A DNA stretch of 23,911 nucleotides from a virus (Duplodnaviria; Heunggongvirae; Uroviricota; Caudoviricetes): IMG/VR virus record IMGVR_UViG_2671180841_000003; one strand, written 5' to 3'. Position numbers: made by a program. Shown piece by piece: positions 1 to 3,000 of the stretch (within the stretch, counting starts at the first letter, position 1; every line of letters starts with the position of its first letter).

Positions 1-3000
1 TGGGGCTGAATGCGCTGACGCTGACGGATATTACCAAAAATGCAACGTATGGCGTTGAGATAGAAAGTCTGGTGCTGGAGATAAATGCACCGGCATCATC
101 ATAAAAAGTGAGCCAGTCAAATGGAAGGTATCGTTAAACTCACCGGTAGTGTCAGTGGGTCGTCTGAGATGCCTGCATGAGTTATCAGAGCCATCAGTAC
201 TTAACTGGTGGCTTTTTTTATTGTTGTCAGCTTCCGGATAACGGGAGACGGGGTATGTACCAGATGGAAAAAATCACAACAGGTGTGTCATACACCACGT
301 CAGCGGTGGGAACGGGCTACTGGTTCCTGCAGTTGCTGGACAGGGTTTCCCCGTCTCAGTGGGCGGCAATAGGCGTGCTGGGGAGTCTGCTGTTTGGGCT
401 GCTGACATATCTGACTAACCTGTATTTCAAAATCAGAGAGGACCGTCGTAAGGCGGCACGGGGAGAGTAATTCAATGACTCAAAACTATGAACTGATTGT
501 GAAAGGGATCCGCAATTTTGAGAATAAAGTTACGGTAACTTTAGCGTTACGGGACAAAAAACGCTTTGACGGTGAAATTTTTGACCTGGACATCTCGCTG
601 GACCGTGTTGAAGGTGCCGCGCTGGAGTTTTATGAGGCAGCAGCCAGAAGGAGCATCAGACAGGTCTTCCTGGATGTTGCTGCCGGGTTATGTGAAGGGG
701 ATGAGCAGTCGCCGGAAAAGCGCCCCGTAATTTTAGAGGCGCAGGATGTGTTGATAACCTACAGAGGAAAACTACCGGGAATAATTACGGGTTCTCTGAA
801 GAGTCCGCCGAAATGGTAATTTTACCAGCATATTTTTCATCCAGTAATACAGCAAGCCGCCTGAAAGAGTCTTGTTGTTCCTGAGACCATTTGGGATTGC
901 ATGATTCAAACTGGATTGATGCCAGCGTTGATTGCATCTGTTCCCTTGGAATTGAGAATGCCAGATATGAGAAGGCGACGGTAAGGGTATTCACGTCTTC
1001 CCGAAGCCTGGAAATGCTGTCGAGCAACTCCTGTAGAGAAATGGTGTTATTGTCCATAAATAATCCTCATGATTGTATTGACCTGTTAGCAGCCTGAGGC
1101 AACAGGCTGGAACTGATAAACATATCCAGGGCTCAGAAACCGATAAATCCTGATAAATATCCATGAACGCAAAAATCAGATACGGCCTGTCGGCTGCCGT
1201 TCTGGCGCTGATTGCCGCTGGTGCGCCTGCGCCTGACATTCTCGACCAGTTTCTGGATGAAAAGGAAGGTAACCACACCACGGCATACCGTGATGGCGCG
1301 GGTATCTGGACCATCTGCCGCGGTGCCATCCTGGTGGATGGCAAACCTGTCGTTCCGGGCATGAAGTTGTCGAAGGAAAAATGCGACCGGGTTAACGCCA
1401 TTGAGCGTGATAAGGCGCTGGCATGGGTGGAGAAAAACATCAAAGTGCCATTGACCGAACCCCAGAAAGCGGGGATCGCGTCATTCTGTCCGTACAACAT
1501 TGGTCCCGGTAAGTGTTTCCCGTCGACGTTTTACAGACGAATTAATGCAGGTGATCGCAGGGGAGCATGCGAAGCGATTCGCTGGTGGATTAAGGACGGT
1601 GGCAGAGACTGCCGTATTCGCTCAAATAACTGTTACGGTCAGGTATTCCGTCGTGACCAGGAGAGCGCGCTGGCGTGCTGGGGAATCGACAGATAAGCAG
1701 AATATTTTGCTGAAAAATGAGGTTGGCCAACGCGGGCGGATAACACGAAGTCCTGTGAACTGGCAAAACCTAAGTGAATAAAAGTAAAAACCCCGTTTGT
1801 TGGCAGCAAGCGGGGTTTTGTTTTTATGGCAGTAAGCTATGGGAGGCTGCCTTGATTGATTTTAGCAAACTGATTAGGGAGTTGCGACTCATGATTAGTC
1901 AATTACCAAACTGGAAATTTTTGCTGGTCTGGAGCATCCCTTTTTTATGGGTAGTATCCCAGTTAATTGTGGCAATTAAGGGGTAGCTATGTCAGACAAA
2001 CTCATAACGCCGGCAAAGGTCCTGTGTGTGATTGTCGGTATTTCATTTTCACTAATGCTGGTTGCTCTTTTTCTGTCCCTCGCCTGGGTGATGTTGTCTT
2101 CGTCGGGGCTGCTGGGGTGACAGTGACTGATGACATCAGCAGAGCGCTGGCTTTTGCTATTAAGTGGGTGGCTGTTGGTATTGCTGTGTCTCCGATGCTG
2201 TATGGGCTGGCAAAACTGGTCATTGCGCTGAAATCGTGAACTTTAAAAAGATGAGTGCTGAACTTATTCGGGCAATGGCATTTGCCATTCGTATTGTGGC
2301 CATTGCTGTTCTGGTCTGGGCAATCCGTTGGTGGTGATATGAACCGTGTTCTGTGTGTGGTGATTATTGTCATGCTGGTAGCCTGTGGTGTGCTTAGTCT
2401 GGGGCTGAATCATTACCGCGATAACGCCATCACCTACAAAGCGCAGCGCGATAAAAAAGTCAGTGAGCTGAAACTGGCGAATGCCACTATTACTGACATG
2501 CAGCAGCGCCAGCGAGATGTCGCTGCGCTTGATGCCAGATACACGAAGGAATTAGCCGATGCGAGAGCTGAAAATGAAACTCTGCGCGCTGATGTTGCCG
2601 CTGGTCGTAAGCGCCTGCGGGTCAACGCCACCTGCCCCGGTACCGTGCGTGAAGCCACCGGCACCTCCAGCGTGGATAATGCAACCGGCCCCCGACTGGC
2701 AGACACCGCTGAACGGGATTATTTCATCCTCAGAGAACGGTTGATGACAATGCAGAAGCAGCTGGAAGGGGCGCAGGAATATATCCGCACTCAGTGCACT
2801 AAGCTGGCTTTTTATTATCCGGAGGATACATGAAGAAATTACGGGTAACCGTAGAACCTTTTCAGGGAACAATTCCGTTCCGTATTTTGCAGCGTGGTCG
2901 TGTTCTTGTTGAAGGTTCGTTCAGTGGTAAATGTACGCAATTACACTCCCGGACCTTTCAGGTGAATGCCACGAATGAAGAGCTAACCGTGGAGTGTACG

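What the first reader, a model, noticed from the sequence alone, without database searches (positions are those of the whole stretch)
1826..2338. Three tandem mini-ORFs, each a single predicted TM helix, between endolysin and Rz
Seen: after the terminator at 1791-1825 come ORFs of 31, 43 and about 40 codons (1891-1986, 1989-2120, 2117-2239), each with one hydrophobic stretch of 19-28 residues, separated by 2 nt or overlapping by GTGA; the middle one has AAGGGG at ideal spacing. A canonical S-R-Rz cassette has nothing here. Inference: they could be small membrane toxins, lysis-timing modulators or superinfection-exclusion peptides, or the decayed remnant of a larger gene.
Basis: partly seen in the sequence, partly recalled or inferred. 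Interest (0 to 1): 0.6.

Follow-up and report, generated by a model that had tools for sequence, protein, structure and literature searches.

The report
Antisense-guarded membrane mini-genes in phage lysis cassette
The gap between the endolysin and spanin genes of this E. coli prophage holds four (not three) tiny genes for single-helix membrane peptides, and the first is headed by what looks like a P22 sar-type antisense-RNA switch, a mobile cassette design found across enterobacterial phages whose peptides have no tested function.

Summary
The ORFs are real, but the description needs correcting. The R–Rz gap (1697-2338) holds four same-strand mini-genes from three conserved phage families, all listed in PHROGs as 'unknown function'. 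A (1989-2120) is phrog_4906. B' (2117/2123-2239) is an N-terminally truncated copy of a 48/60-aa gene. They are not debris of one larger gene: B and D show pN/pS of 0.09-0.18, similar to the holin and endolysin. In 80 prophages with ≥94%-identical endolysins the gap carries ten different contents.

Unexpectedly, every 'first' mini-gene has the same 5' module: a GC hairpin with a minus-strand U-tract, a short structured leader, and a minus-strand promoter inside codons 3-13. This is the geometry of P22 arc–sar–ant, with similar hairpins. I therefore predict a ~70-nt Sar-like antisense RNA (1852→~1783). The cassettes also occur in tail modules and after non-SAR endolysins.

Most likely they encode late-expressed, tightly silenced, membrane-active peptides that modulate lysis. 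That function is inferred, not shown.

The parts
1163..1696 (+). R21/RrrQ-type SAR endolysin (177 aa); upstream boundary of the variable slot
   Evidence: PGAP names it 'lysozyme rrrQ' in an identical genome. Its N-terminus YGLSAAVLALIAAGAPAP is Gly/Ala-rich.
1787..1819 (.). GC-rich hairpin with an A-run on its 5' side and a T-run on its 3' side, so it is a bidirectional intrinsic terminator. It would stop non-antiterminated + strand transcripts after R and is the predicted terminator of the minus-strand Sar-like RNA.
   Evidence: Terminator scan. dG is -20 kcal/mol and the flanks are tabulated. It is conserved in all slot variants. Its sequence is similar to the annotated P22 sar terminator. 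Model R1 scores 59.5 bits on the - strand against 38.3 on the + strand.
1783..1852 (-). Predicted ~70-nt Sar-like cis-antisense RNA. It is complementary to the O1 start codon, SD and leader and ends at the hairpin and U-tract.
   Evidence: The TSS is placed 7 nt after the -10 hexamer, as in the P22 annotation (sar 3091→3022, ant ATG 3092). The fold has a 5' stem-loop with CCUCCC in a 14-nt loop, an A-rich linker and the terminator; dG is -20.8 and z is -2.4. The covariance-model hit is at 1778-1854(-), E=1.1e-11 (this sequence was part of the training set). There is no RNA-level evidence.
1859..1887 (-). Predicted Psar-like promoter inside O1 codons 3-12: -35 TCGCAA (1887-1882), 17-nt spacer, extended -10 TG (1867-1866) and TAAAAT (1864-1859).
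   Evidence: Custom scan. The same element sits at the same codon positions in D-family genes of E. coli, Enterobacter, Citrobacter, Klebsiella, Salmonella phages SEN34 and SPN3UB, and a Pseudomonas phage. Synonymous-codon identity is 0.95 in the hexamer codons against 0.47 in codons 15-43, permutation p=0.003.
1828..1851 (+). Leader stem-loop (GGCAG/CUGCC) holding the O1 Shine-Dalgarno sequence (GGGAGG, 1841-1846) in its loop, directly before TTG 1852.
   Evidence: Folds. Analogous 4-5-bp stems with about 7-nt loops, built from different sequences, occur in the leaders of the other cassettes.
1852..1986 (+). Mini-gene O1 (D family, phrog_6632), 44 aa: an N-terminal amphipathic segment (IDFSKLIRELRLM), one TM helix, and the C-terminus AIKG.
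   Evidence: The L090-type D genes have pN/pS of 0.18. The SD-antiSD duplex energy is -10.2 kcal/mol for the upstream start and -8.4 for ATG 1891.
1989..2120 (+). Mini-gene A (phrog_4906), 43 aa, with one 26-residue TM helix. It is always a 'second gene' behind B, O1 or Ant, and is found only in E. coli.
   Evidence: PHROG match E=4.5e-21. There are 103 clusters with length fixed at 43 aa and an invariant core CVIVGISFSLMLV. It is present in 276 phage records, including 933W. pN/pS is 0.67, so selection evidence is weak.
2117..2239 (+). Mini-gene B' (B family, phrog_1115/4493), 38-40 aa, starting at GTG 2117 or GTG 2123. It is a truncated copy lacking the first 20 or so codons, the leader and the hairpin of full-length B, and is fused to the A stop codon (GTGA).
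   Evidence: Alignment with L084, L002 and L010. Full-length B has pN/pS of 0.09-0.12. Natural 38-aa short forms with ATG starts exist (P0102-P0108). PGAP calls a CTG start at 2084.
2251..2337 (+). Mini-gene C (short form of the B/C family, phrog_4493), 28 aa, ending in RWW. Its stop codon is 1 nt before the Rz ATG. It has no SD of its own and lies 11 nt after the B' stop.
   Evidence: The same B–C module occurs in L010.
2339..2833 (+). Rz i-spanin, with Rz1 embedded at 2559-2744; downstream boundary of the slot
   Evidence: Its N-terminal TMD variants are tabulated.
19829..19890 (-). Second, weaker copy of the hairpin/leader module in the 342-nt gap between tail genes I and J, with no TM mini-gene behind it. 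It is probably a cassette remnant in the other slot used by these cassettes.
   Evidence: Model R1 E=0.0014 over its full length. Sequence. Homologous cassettes occupy the I–J slot in Citrobacter and S. salamae prophages.

Best explanation
The R–Rz gap of this lambdoid E. coli prophage is a recombination hot-spot. It holds a mosaic array of four genes for bitopic inner-membrane peptides: O1 (D family), A, a truncated B, and a short C.

The array is led by one complete mobile cassette. Its 5' module has the architecture of P22 immI arc–sar–ant, and the hairpins look related. The module consists of a hairpin that terminates a minus-strand RNA, a roughly 32-nt structured leader carrying the SD, the start codon, and an antisense promoter embedded in codons 3-12.

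Proposed mechanism:
(i) In the lysogen no sense promoter feeds the genes. The hairpin stops stray + strand transcripts. A constitutive ~70-nt Sar-like RNA pairs with the O1 SD and start region, so the peptides stay off.
(ii) After induction, Q-antiterminated late transcription reads through the hairpin. It out-titrates the antisense RNA and, being convergent, interferes with the antisense promoter. O1 is then translated, and A, B' and C follow from their own SD or by coupling, immediately ahead of Rz/Rz1.
(iii) The peptides insert N-in/C-out into the inner membrane and act on the membrane step of lysis, either by depolarising it or by modulating holin triggering. They are accessory lysis-timing factors, not core lysis proteins.

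Shown: the ORFs, their families and purifying selection; the mosaic architecture; the conserved hairpin, leader and promoter-like module; and its match to the annotated P22 sar locus.

Inferred: that the antisense RNA is made and represses, that the peptides are harmful or membrane-active, and that their role is in lysis timing.
For: Real genes. All four ORFs match PHROG families. B has pN/pS of 0.09-0.12 and D 0.18 in frame 0 only, comparable to R (0.10) and the holin (0.12). The A core and length are invariant over 100 clusters.

Hot-spot. Eighty loci with R ≥94% identical show ten different gap contents: 24 O1-A-B'-C, 22 D alone, 15 B-A, 8 Ant-A, 3 C, 2 with no insert, and others. The junctions are mapped.

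Late-only expression. No + strand promoter lies in 1826-2340. A terminator lies upstream. The SD is enclosed in leader structures.

Sar-like module.
- Minus-strand promoter-like hexamers lie at CDS positions 8-13 and about 36-42 in both non-homologous families and in a third 57-aa gene.
- In the D family, synonymous sites are conserved in the hexamers but not in the spacer.
- In B, the -10 AGTATA survives even where the encoded peptide changes (RKYKR to DKYNR).
- All 14 cassettes examined have an A-run 5' of the hairpin, which gives a U-tract on the minus strand. Two of them lack a convincing + strand T-run.
- The annotated P22 locus has the identical layout and the same TATACT -10, and its hairpin looks related.
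- Covariance model R1 finds untrained cassettes at E=3e-18 to 5e-5, and finds the P22 sar terminator on the correct strand at E=0.028.
- The module is present in 68 of 80 R-anchored loci.

Lysis association. B- or D-type cassettes sit directly after the endolysin in four unrelated cassette types: R21-type lysozyme, a 161-aa lysozyme with a Gly/Ala-rich N-terminus (SAR-like), a GH19 endolysin and a Peptidase_M15 endolysin. In the three where the next gene could be identified it is the spanin.

Precedents for extra small membrane proteins in lysis. Mu releasin (PMC9239132) and LambdaSo Lcc6 (bioRxiv 10.1101/2024.01.23.576932). P2 LysA, which sits between endolysin and spanins, is cited from general knowledge.
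Against: There is no RNA-seq, TSS or Ribo-seq evidence for either the antisense RNA or the peptides. The Hfq-CRAC sRNA list for O157 Sakai has no entry at the homologous C cassette in Sp4. K-12 prophages lack homologues, so K-12 Ribo-seq is uninformative.

Rfam's sar model gives only a sub-threshold hit (E=0.54, on the + strand). R1 matches only the hairpin part of P22 sar.

The window's own antisense promoter scores 8/12 plus an extended TG, below the stock scanner's cut-off.

Conservation of the first 12 codons could reflect protein function or recent recombination of a shared 5' linker.

In P22, sar keeps ant off (PMC13397905; my recollection is that this includes late read-through transcripts). 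If that holds here, the long form of O1 might never be made.

Homologous cassettes also occur in tail-tip, baseplate and tail-fibre slots, so a lysis-specific role is not required.

A has pN/pS of 0.67. B' and C are truncated or short, and in this architecture they show only 2 nonsynonymous and 3 synonymous singletons. Their functionality here is therefore unproven.

Cassettes with no mini-gene exist (Qin, L135, L164), so the genes are dispensable for lysis.
Confidence: 0.55

Rival explanations
1. The peptides are superinfection-exclusion or lysogenic-conversion morons. Like HK97 gp15, they would be small inner-membrane proteins that block genome entry of other phages, and their position in the lysis cassette would be incidental.
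For: B- and D-family cassettes also lie immediately before tail-tip gene J, before baseplate wedge genes, or after tail-fibre genes in Salmonella, Citrobacter, Klebsiella, SEN34 and a Pseudomonas phage. These are positions where exclusion morons are known (PMC3594210). The slot content turns over rapidly among near-identical phages, as expected for arms-race genes. GC content is lower than the flanks: 0.39-0.50 against 0.54-0.55. The tail copies are flanked by terminators.
Against: No sense-strand promoter was found in any cassette. The design (upstream terminator, enclosed SD, predicted antisense repressor) argues for silence in the lysogen, the opposite of a prophage-expressed exclusion gene. 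There are no PADLOC or Pfam (YebO) matches.
Confidence: 0.17
2. Only the coding part is real and no antisense RNA is made. The minus-strand 'promoter' would be a by-product of conserved N-terminal codons and of a shared recombination linker, and the hairpin would simply be the terminator after R.
For: The window's element scores 8/12. Promoter-like matches in the region are no more frequent than in shuffles. The sequences are related, so conservation counts are not independent. The Rfam sar model does not reach threshold. The Hfq-CRAC list has no sRNA at the homologous Sakai Sp4 cassette.
Against: Two non-homologous coding sequences place the hexamers at the same codon positions as P22 Psar. 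Synonymous sites are conserved in the hexamers but vary in the spacer. AGTATA is kept where the peptide sequence changes. Hairpins in the tail copies have a U-tract only on the minus strand. The hairpin travels with each cassette, even when it lies downstream of Ant rather than R (L013).
Confidence: 0.25
3. The array is largely neutral baggage. B' and C would be recombination leftovers whose only retained role is to carry ribosomes to the Rz start by translational coupling, and the peptides would have no activity of their own.
For: B' lacks its native start, leader and about 20 codons. C has no SD and ends 1 nt before the Rz ATG. Its last codons, TGG TGG TGA, form a weak SD-like GGUGG for Rz. 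The window-type array shows almost no variation from which to judge selection. A premature stop in O1 is tolerated in L160. Single-member A–B' frameshift fusions occur.
Against: Full-length B and D are under purifying selection as strong as the endolysin's. The D family keeps RWW and its TM segment in tail slots where no Rz follows. Natural short forms of B and C carry their own ATG.
Confidence: 0.15
4. The peptides are dedicated partners of SAR endolysins, acting like releasins or anti-release factors on the SAR anchor.
For: In E. coli and Salmonella they follow lysozymes with Gly/Ala-rich N-termini paired with class II holins. Mu and LambdaSo show that SAR systems can need an extra small membrane protein (PMC9239132; bioRxiv 10.1101/2024.01.23.576932).
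Against: Homologous cassettes follow GH19 and Peptidase_M15 endolysins and also sit in tail modules. There is no DUF2730 match. The predicted topology (N-in, almost no soluble domain) is the opposite of gp25 and Lcc6.
Confidence: 0.04

Closest known systems
Phage P22 immI sar RNA / ant module (arc–sar terminator–ant, with Psar inside ant)
   Same: The layout matches to within a few nucleotides. A rho-independent terminator for a minus-strand RNA lies between the upstream gene and the target. A roughly 32-nt leader carries the SD. The antisense TSS abuts the start codon. The promoter lies in codons 3-12. The RNA is about 70 nt. B-type cassettes use the same -10 (TATACT), and the hairpin sequences are similar. 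Both lie inside late operons as insertions.
   Different: The guarded gene is a 44-60-aa membrane peptide, often followed by further mini-genes, not the 300-aa antirepressor. There is no Pant, arc or mnt, so sense transcription can only come from the late operon. The Rfam sar model does not reach threshold. The RNA has not been observed.
Type I toxin-antitoxin systems (hok/sok, symE/symR, ibs/sib)
   Same: A small hydrophobic single-TM peptide under 60 aa. A structured 5' leader hides the SD. A short cis-antisense RNA is predicted to overlap the translation-initiation region, with its promoter inside the ORF as in symR.
   Different: No toxin promoter was found. The cassette depends on Q-antiterminated late transcription. 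Toxicity is untested. There is no sequence similarity to known toxin families.
Antiholins and accessory lysis membrane proteins (lambda S107/S105, phage 21 S71/S68, P2 LysA, P1 LydB)
   Same: Small membrane proteins encoded inside lysis cassettes. P2 lysA occupies the same endolysin-to-spanin position. Both the B and D families have a conserved second in-frame Met (codon 13 or 14) preceded by an SD, which recalls dual-start holin/antiholin pairs.
   Different: There is no homology: the only 'holin' PHROG hit is E=0.029. The peptides have a single TMD. They also occur outside lysis cassettes. Use of the second start is not shown.
Mu gp25 releasin (DUF2730) and Shewanella LambdaSo Lcc6
   Same: Extra small bitopic membrane proteins that lysis systems with SAR endolysins can require.
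   Different: gp25 (99 aa) and Lcc6 (65 aa) are N-out/C-in with a cytoplasmic domain. The peptides here are 28-60 aa, predicted N-in, and have almost no soluble part. There is no DUF2730 match, and they are not restricted to SAR endolysins.
HK97 gp15 moron (YebO-like inner-membrane superinfection-exclusion protein)
   Same: A small inner-membrane protein inserted between late genes, with low GC and, in the tail-slot copies, flanking terminators.
   Different: gp15 has its own promoter and is expressed from the prophage. No sense promoter was found here, and the cassette looks built for repression. There is no YebO similarity.

Membership tests
PHROG mini-protein families phrog_6632 (O1/D), phrog_4906 (A), phrog_1115/4493 (B, C) | Significant full-length HMM match | tested here: met
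   O1 (44 aa) E=1.4e-13 over positions 1-43 of 45. A E=4.5e-21. B' region E=1.7e-24 (phrog_1115). C E=3.8e-6. All are annotated 'unknown function'.
P22 sar/ant-type antisense control module | Rho-independent terminator for a minus-strand RNA lying between the upstream gene and the target's start codon | tested here: met
   Hairpin 1787-1819 has a 5' A-run, giving a minus-strand U-tract. The same holds in all 14 cassettes examined, including two without a convincing + strand T-run.
P22 sar/ant-type antisense control module | Antisense promoter within the first ~12 codons of the target, with its TSS abutting the start codon | tested here: met
   Met at sequence level only. The window has TCGCAA-17-TGcTAAAAT at 1887-1859, and 7 nt further is position 1852. 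The geometry matches annotated P22 Psar (3126-3098, TSS 3091, ATG 3092). Synonymous sites are conserved, p=0.003.
P22 sar/ant-type antisense control module | Sequence and structure homology to sar RNA (Rfam RF00262) | tested here: inconclusive
   No Rfam hit in the window at E≤1. One sub-threshold hit in L187 (25 bits against a 43-bit gathering score, E=0.54). The reverse test, model R1 built from the cassettes, hits the P22 sar terminator on the right strand at E=0.028, hairpin part only. The hairpins are visibly similar.
P22 sar/ant-type antisense control module | The RNA is transcribed and represses translation of the downstream gene | not testable with these tools
   Needs Northern blot, 5'RACE or dRNA-seq, and reporter fusions.
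Type I toxin-antitoxin | Hydrophobic toxin peptide under 60 aa with one TM helix | tested here: met
   Peptides of 28-44 aa with 19-aa Kyte-Doolittle means of 1.9-2.9.
Type I toxin-antitoxin | Toxin mRNA made from its own promoter | tested here: not met
   No + strand sigma-70-like site between the hairpin and the genes in the window or in 10 related cassettes.
Type I toxin-antitoxin | The peptide is toxic and is neutralised by the antisense RNA | not testable with these tools
   Requires inducible expression with and without the antisense RNA.
Holin/antiholin | Homology to a described holin or antiholin family | tested here: not met
   Pfam and NCBIfam give nothing. The only 'holin' PHROG hit is E=0.029, for the 48-aa A variant.
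Holin/antiholin | Dual-start motif giving two isoforms that differ in N-terminal charge | tested here: inconclusive
   Conserved in-frame Met13 (B) and Met14 (D), each with an SD. Use of both starts is not shown.
Mu releasin (DUF2730) / LambdaSo Lcc6 | DUF2730 domain, or N-out/C-in topology with a cytoplasmic domain, together with dependence on a SAR endolysin | tested here: not met
   No Pfam hit. The charge distribution predicts N-in with no soluble domain (sequences). Homologues follow GH19 and M15 endolysins.
Moron (sensu Juhala/Hendrix; HK97 gp15 type) | An insertion relative to related phages, with deviant GC | tested here: met
   Absent in K-12 Qin, L135 and L164. GC is 0.39-0.50 against 0.54-0.55 in R and Rz.
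Moron (sensu Juhala/Hendrix; HK97 gp15 type) | Own promoter allowing expression from the repressed prophage | tested here: not met
   No sense promoter was found. This is a consensus scan only, so weak or alternative-sigma promoters are not excluded.

The most novel reading that the evidence does not exclude
These are a previously unrecognised class of mobile, promoter-less 'late-operon toxin cassettes'. Each carries a Sar-like antisense RNA and a terminator that hold a depolarising membrane peptide silent in the lysogen. Convergent Q-antiterminated transcription then switches the peptide on with a delay, making an RNA-based timer that helps trigger holin firing and hence lysis (and Shiga-toxin release in Stx phages). 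The same 5' switch has been reused to guard several unrelated peptide families, in both the lysis and tail slots of enterobacterial and Pseudomonas phages.
Probability: 0.22. Interest if true: 0.82.

Novelty: new variant of a known kind. Interest (0 to 1): 0.62.

Why it matters
Lysis timing sets phage burst size and, in Stx phages, the timing of toxin release. The textbook holin–endolysin–spanin cassette leaves no role for these genes. Yet 76 of 78 sampled cassettes of this type carry an insert here, always including at least one such mini-gene. Some part of the 649-nt query (R stop to Rz start) matches in 2068 of 5426 complete E. coli genomes. Family A is in 276 phage records including 933W, and family D is in H-19B. 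Most phage records leave them unannotated.

If the Sar-like switch is real, it extends a classic P22 regulatory device to a widespread set of small-protein cassettes. It also gives a concrete, testable link between antisense RNA control, small membrane proteins and the late programme of temperate phages.

Even if the function proves modest, the work corrects gene starts (O1 at 1852; B probably 60 aa) and shows that phrog_3246 is an over-called frame.

Tried and rejected
1. One decayed larger gene. Rejected: the units recur independently, and the 90-aa ORF (phrog_3246) is an over-call.

2. The minus-strand 123-aa ORF 2005-2373. No PHROG match.

3. A as a duplicated Rz transmembrane segment. Local alignment p≈0.017 and codon-shuffle DNA p=0.17, not significant after multiple comparisons. 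Rz TMD types do not co-vary with the upstream mini-gene.

4. B related to O1/D at protein level. p=0.02-0.55, not established.

5. Pfam, NCBIfam and PADLOC gave no hits.

6. Rfam on the window gave nothing. On related loci it gave only sub-threshold sar and rimP-leader hits.

7. Homologues in K-12 Rac, DLP12 or Qin, to borrow Ribo-seq evidence: none.

8. Scan of one genome per species with the B/C alignment: no confirmed relative, so the family is strain-level accessory.

9. Literature. Accession and PHROG-id searches found nothing. The Stx-phage comparative paper PMC8136144 does not mention these genes in the passages retrieved.

10. Hfq-CRAC sRNAs of O157 Sakai. EcOnc11 lies downstream of Rz, not in the slot, and there is no entry at the Sp4 C cassette.

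11. The Stx-phage Ant cassette does not carry the same 5' module.

12. The stock scanner's minus-strand promoter hit at 1995→1966 is not conserved at the B–A junction, judged by inspecting the L002 sequence. It was not pursued.

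
Full report
**Context.** The window is the late region of a lambdoid E. coli prophage. The 649 nt from the R stop to the Rz start are 100% identical in ST131 strains such as EC958. Some part of that stretch matches in 2068 of 5426 complete E. coli genomes. The lysis cassette reads as follows:
- tR'-like terminator, 187-215
- class II holin, 255-470
- YdfR-family gene, 475-819
- a minus-strand 90-aa gene, 785-1057
- SAR-type lysozyme R, 1163-1696
- the region in question
- Rz, 2339-2833, with Rz1 embedded at 2559-2744

**Observation check.** The hairpin terminator (1787-1819 plus a T-run), the three ORFs, their 2-nt and GTGA junctions, the AAGGGG SD of the middle ORF and the hydrophobic stretches are all present. 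Four points need correcting.

1. ORF1 starts earlier, at TTG 1852, behind GGGAGG and a 5-nt spacer. The 44-aa product matches phrog_6632 end to end (E=1.4e-13, against 6e-5 for the 31-aa version). The added N-terminus IDFSKLIRELR is the most conserved part of the family in E. coli, Salmonella, Providencia, Citrobacter, Enterobacter, Klebsiella and even Pseudomonas phages.
2. A fourth mini-ORF (2251-2337, 28 aa) was missed. It ends 1 nt before the Rz start. PGAP annotates it, together with 1989-2120 and 2084-2239, but not ORF1.
3. ORF3 is a truncated copy of a longer mini-gene.
4. In this cassette type the gap is almost never empty.

**What the ORFs are.** I call them O1 (D family), A, B' and C.

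- *B.* In relatives B is 48 aa (MKNGLELKAPV…LVIALKS), or 60 aa from an upstream ATG (MEKYKRILLRLT-MKNG…).
- *C.* C has a full form of 37 aa (PGAP start; 50 aa from an upstream in-frame GTG) and is a paralogue of B.
- *A.* A is a 43-aa peptide with an invariant core CVIVGISFSLMLV and fixed length over about 100 sequence clusters, all from E. coli.
- *Selection.* Frame-specific purifying selection is clear for B (pN/pS 0.09-0.12) and D (0.18), comparable to R (0.10) and the holin (0.12). It is weak for A (0.67) and cannot be measured for C.
- *Arrangement.* The alignment shows that the window's array is a mosaic. O1 sits where B sits in most relatives, and A follows it. A B copy lacking its first 20 or so codons, its leader and its hairpin is then fused at A's stop codon, and the short C follows, as in the separate B–C module. 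L084 carries B-A-B'-C with the same junction.
- *Diversity.* Among 80 IMG/VR loci chosen only because their endolysin is ≥94% identical, the gap contents were: 24 O1-A-B'-C, 22 D alone, 15 B-A, 8 Ant-A, 3 C alone, single cases of B-C and O1-A, 2 direct R/Rz overlaps as in K-12 Qin, and 4 loci truncated before Rz.

The 'remnant of a larger gene' idea is therefore rejected. This is a recombination hot-spot that collects small membrane-peptide genes. In the window-type array itself the 485 nt of mini-genes carry only 8 singleton SNPs in 26 loci. The functionality of B' and C in this particular arrangement cannot be judged from that.

**Where else the cassettes occur.** B- or D-type genes sit directly after the endolysin in four unrelated lysis cassettes. 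In the first three the next gene is identifiable as the spanin.
- the R21-type cassette here
- a Salmonella cassette with a 161-aa lysozyme (Gly/Ala-rich, SAR-like N-terminus) and a different holin (sequence)
- an Enterobacter cassette with a GH19 endolysin and different spanins; Salmonella phage SPN3UB also has a D gene between its endolysin and Rz
- an E. coli cassette with a Peptidase_M15 endolysin

They also occur in tail modules:
- between I and J in S. salamae and Citrobacter
- before baseplate genes in Klebsiella and phage SEN34
- among tail genes of a Pseudomonas phage
- after tail-fibre genes in Salmonella

They are therefore mobile late-operon insertions, not partners of SAR endolysins. 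No homologue exists in K-12 prophages or in one-genome-per-species representatives.

**The unexpected part: a shared 5' module.** Every cassette that is first in a slot begins with four elements:
- a GC hairpin (dG -15 to -24 kcal/mol)
- 27-59 nt of leader
- a small stem-loop next to or enclosing the SD
- the start codon

The leader of Enterobacter and SEN34 D genes is homologous to the leader of E. coli B genes, although the proteins are unrelated. This also places the true B start at the upstream ATG.

On the minus strand, both families carry promoter-like hexamers at the same codon positions.
- D/O1: TCGCAA, 17 nt, TG-n-TAAAAT.
- B/C: TAGTCA, TTGTCA, TGGACA or TTGGCC, then 16-18 nt, then TATACT.
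- In both, the -10 occupies CDS positions 8-13.

Three observations argue that this is a nucleotide-level constraint.
- Synonymous-codon identity in eight D lineages is 0.95 in the hexamer codons, 0.69 in the spacer codons and 0.47 in codons 15-43 (permutation p=0.003).
- In a Salmonella B variant the peptide changes from RKYKR to DKYNR, yet AGTATA is retained.
- In L187 a different 57-aa gene shares only the first five codons, GTG ATT GAT TTT AGC, which contain the -10.

All hairpins have an A-run on their 5' side, which gives a U-tract on the minus strand. The S. salamae and Citrobacter tail copies lack a convincing + strand T-run.

**Match to P22 sar.** This geometry is that of the experimentally characterised P22 immI region. 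In the annotated P22 genome:
- sar RNA runs 3091→3022 on the minus strand
- its terminator is at 3022-3059
- the ant ATG is at 3092
- Psar occupies ant codons 3-12, with -10 TATACT (the reverse complement of AGTATA)

The hairpins are visibly similar: P22 AGCCCCAACTGCGGTAACAGTCAGGGCT against S. salamae AGCCCCGCACTGCTGAGAACAGTCGGGGCT.

I built covariance model R1 from 11 predicted cassette antisense RNAs, without P22.
- It finds untrained cassettes at E=3e-18 to 5e-5.
- It finds the P22 sar terminator on the correct strand at E=0.028.
- It hits 68 of the 80 R-anchored loci on the minus strand at 57-88 bits, against 30-39 bits on the plus strand.

Rfam's own sar model gives only a sub-threshold hit. 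I therefore describe the module as Sar-like, not as a sar family member.

For the window the prediction is a ~70-nt RNA from about 1852 to about 1783 on the minus strand. Its 5' stem-loop displays CCUCCC, the complement of the O1 SD. An A-rich linker and the terminator follow. sar is known to block ant translation by pairing with its mRNA (PMC13397905, PMC2629481).

**Mechanism.** No sense promoter lies between the hairpin and the genes. The only plausible source of mRNA is therefore the Q-antiterminated late transcript, which ignores the hairpin. Three silencing devices are stacked in front of a 44-aa membrane peptide: the terminator, the enclosed SD and the antisense RNA. That suggests the product is harmful if made at the wrong time.

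My best reading is that these are late, membrane-active accessory peptides, predicted N-in/C-out. They would tune the membrane step of lysis, with the antisense RNA supplying lysogen-state silence and possibly a delay. Both the B and D families also keep a second in-frame Met (codon 13 or 14) behind an SD, outside the reach of the antisense RNA. This recalls holin/antiholin dual starts, but it is only a lead.

Precedents for additional small membrane proteins in lysis are Mu releasin and LambdaSo Lcc6, and P2 LysA from general knowledge. None is homologous, and the releasin-type features were tested and not met.

The main functional rival is a superinfection-exclusion moron of the HK97 gp15 kind. 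The tail-slot copies and the rapid turnover favour it. The absence of a promoter and the repression-oriented design count against it.

All functional steps are inference. No transcript, footprint or phenotype is available. The Sakai Hfq-CRAC list has nothing at the homologous site, which is weak negative evidence because cis-antisense RNAs are often Hfq-independent.

**Novelty and verdict.** The proteins are already in databases as anonymous hypothetical proteins or PHROGs, and the antisense principle is that of P22 sar. I could not find any description of two things: the coupling of a Sar-like switch to families of tiny membrane peptides, and the spread of that cassette through the endolysin–spanin and tail-tip slots of many enterobacterial phages, including classical Stx phages. 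Literature searches gave nothing. I rate it a new variant of a known kind, of moderate-to-good interest, and directly testable.

Noticed in passing
window 19629-19970 (hairpin/leader at 19829-19890, minus strand): The 342-nt AT-rich (GC 0.44) gap between tail genes I and J contains a second, weaker copy of the Sar-like hairpin/leader module (model R1 E=0.0014). No TM mini-gene lies behind it. It looks like an emptied cassette in the same I–J slot that holds B- or D-type genes in Citrobacter and S. salamae prophages.
   Followed up: partly
window 785-1057 (minus strand): A 90-aa gene on the opposite strand (phrog_2411, E=1e-58) sits between the YdfR-family gene and R, and overlaps the 3' end of the ydfR-like gene by 35 nt. 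It is a convergent insertion inside the lysis cassette, and some relatives lack it.
   Followed up: no
window 2830-3045: A 71-aa ORF overlaps the Rz stop codon. It matches only positions 100-165 of a 291-position PHROG (phrog_2571), so it may be a fragment of a larger protein.
   Followed up: no
window 3244-3504 (minus strand) and the homologous site in O157 Sakai Sp10 (L183, about 6320-6370): In Sakai, the very abundant Hfq-bound RNAs EcOnc11 and EcOnc12 (Tree et al. 2014, Table S2) were reported as minus-strand peaks. In Sp10, EcOnc11 maps just downstream of Rz, next to the YlcI/YnfO-family gene. EcOnc12 in Sp9 has similar spacing, but I did not fetch that region. The window has the same gene arrangement, so a similar sRNA or 3'-UTR RNA may lie between 3046 and 3243.
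   Followed up: no
L166 about 2714-2812 (Salmonella prophage): A 32-codon hydrophobic ORF (MAAMICFVAAFMLACDGRSGWGWFLLVGLIVM) overlaps the last codons of the 161-aa lysozyme (ATGGCAGCAATGA), upstream of the B cassette. It may be yet another membrane mini-gene in this slot.
   Followed up: no
L166 about 2977-3003 and L004 about 1661-1687: In the Salmonella B and E. coli full-length C cassettes a 25-nt insertion creates an 8-codon leader ORF (in L166: ATG TGT AGG GAG GTG TAT TCC CTG TGA). Its stop overlaps the GTG start of the mini-gene (GTGA), suggesting translational coupling or attenuation in the leader.
   Followed up: no
L187 2341-2514: A 57-aa TM mini-gene follows a Peptidase_M15 endolysin. 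It shares only its first five codons (GTG ATT GAT TTT AGC, which carry the antisense -10) with the D family, then diverges completely. A B-like gene is coupled to its stop codon. The 5' module evidently recombines independently of the peptide it guards.
   Followed up: partly
proteins P0086, P0089-P0092, P0110 (E. coli genomes with the window-type array): Single-member clusters encode 79-83-aa A–B' fusion proteins. They are created by 1-nt frame shifts in the T/C-rich 3' part of A. These are probably assembly errors, but the B' frame is open across all of A (ORF 1967-2239).
   Followed up: no
window 1966-1995 (minus strand): The stock scanner reports a second minus-strand promoter-like site (CTGACA-18-CACAAT with TG) across the O1 stop / A start junction. 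Inspection of the L002 sequence shows that the -10 is not conserved at the B–A junction of relatives.
   Followed up: partly
window 1712-1770: The stretch between the R stop codon and the hairpin exists as two diverged haplotypes. It has 22 variable sites in 26 otherwise near-identical loci, while the following 250 nt have none. This marks a sharp recombination boundary just upstream of the cassette.
   Followed up: no
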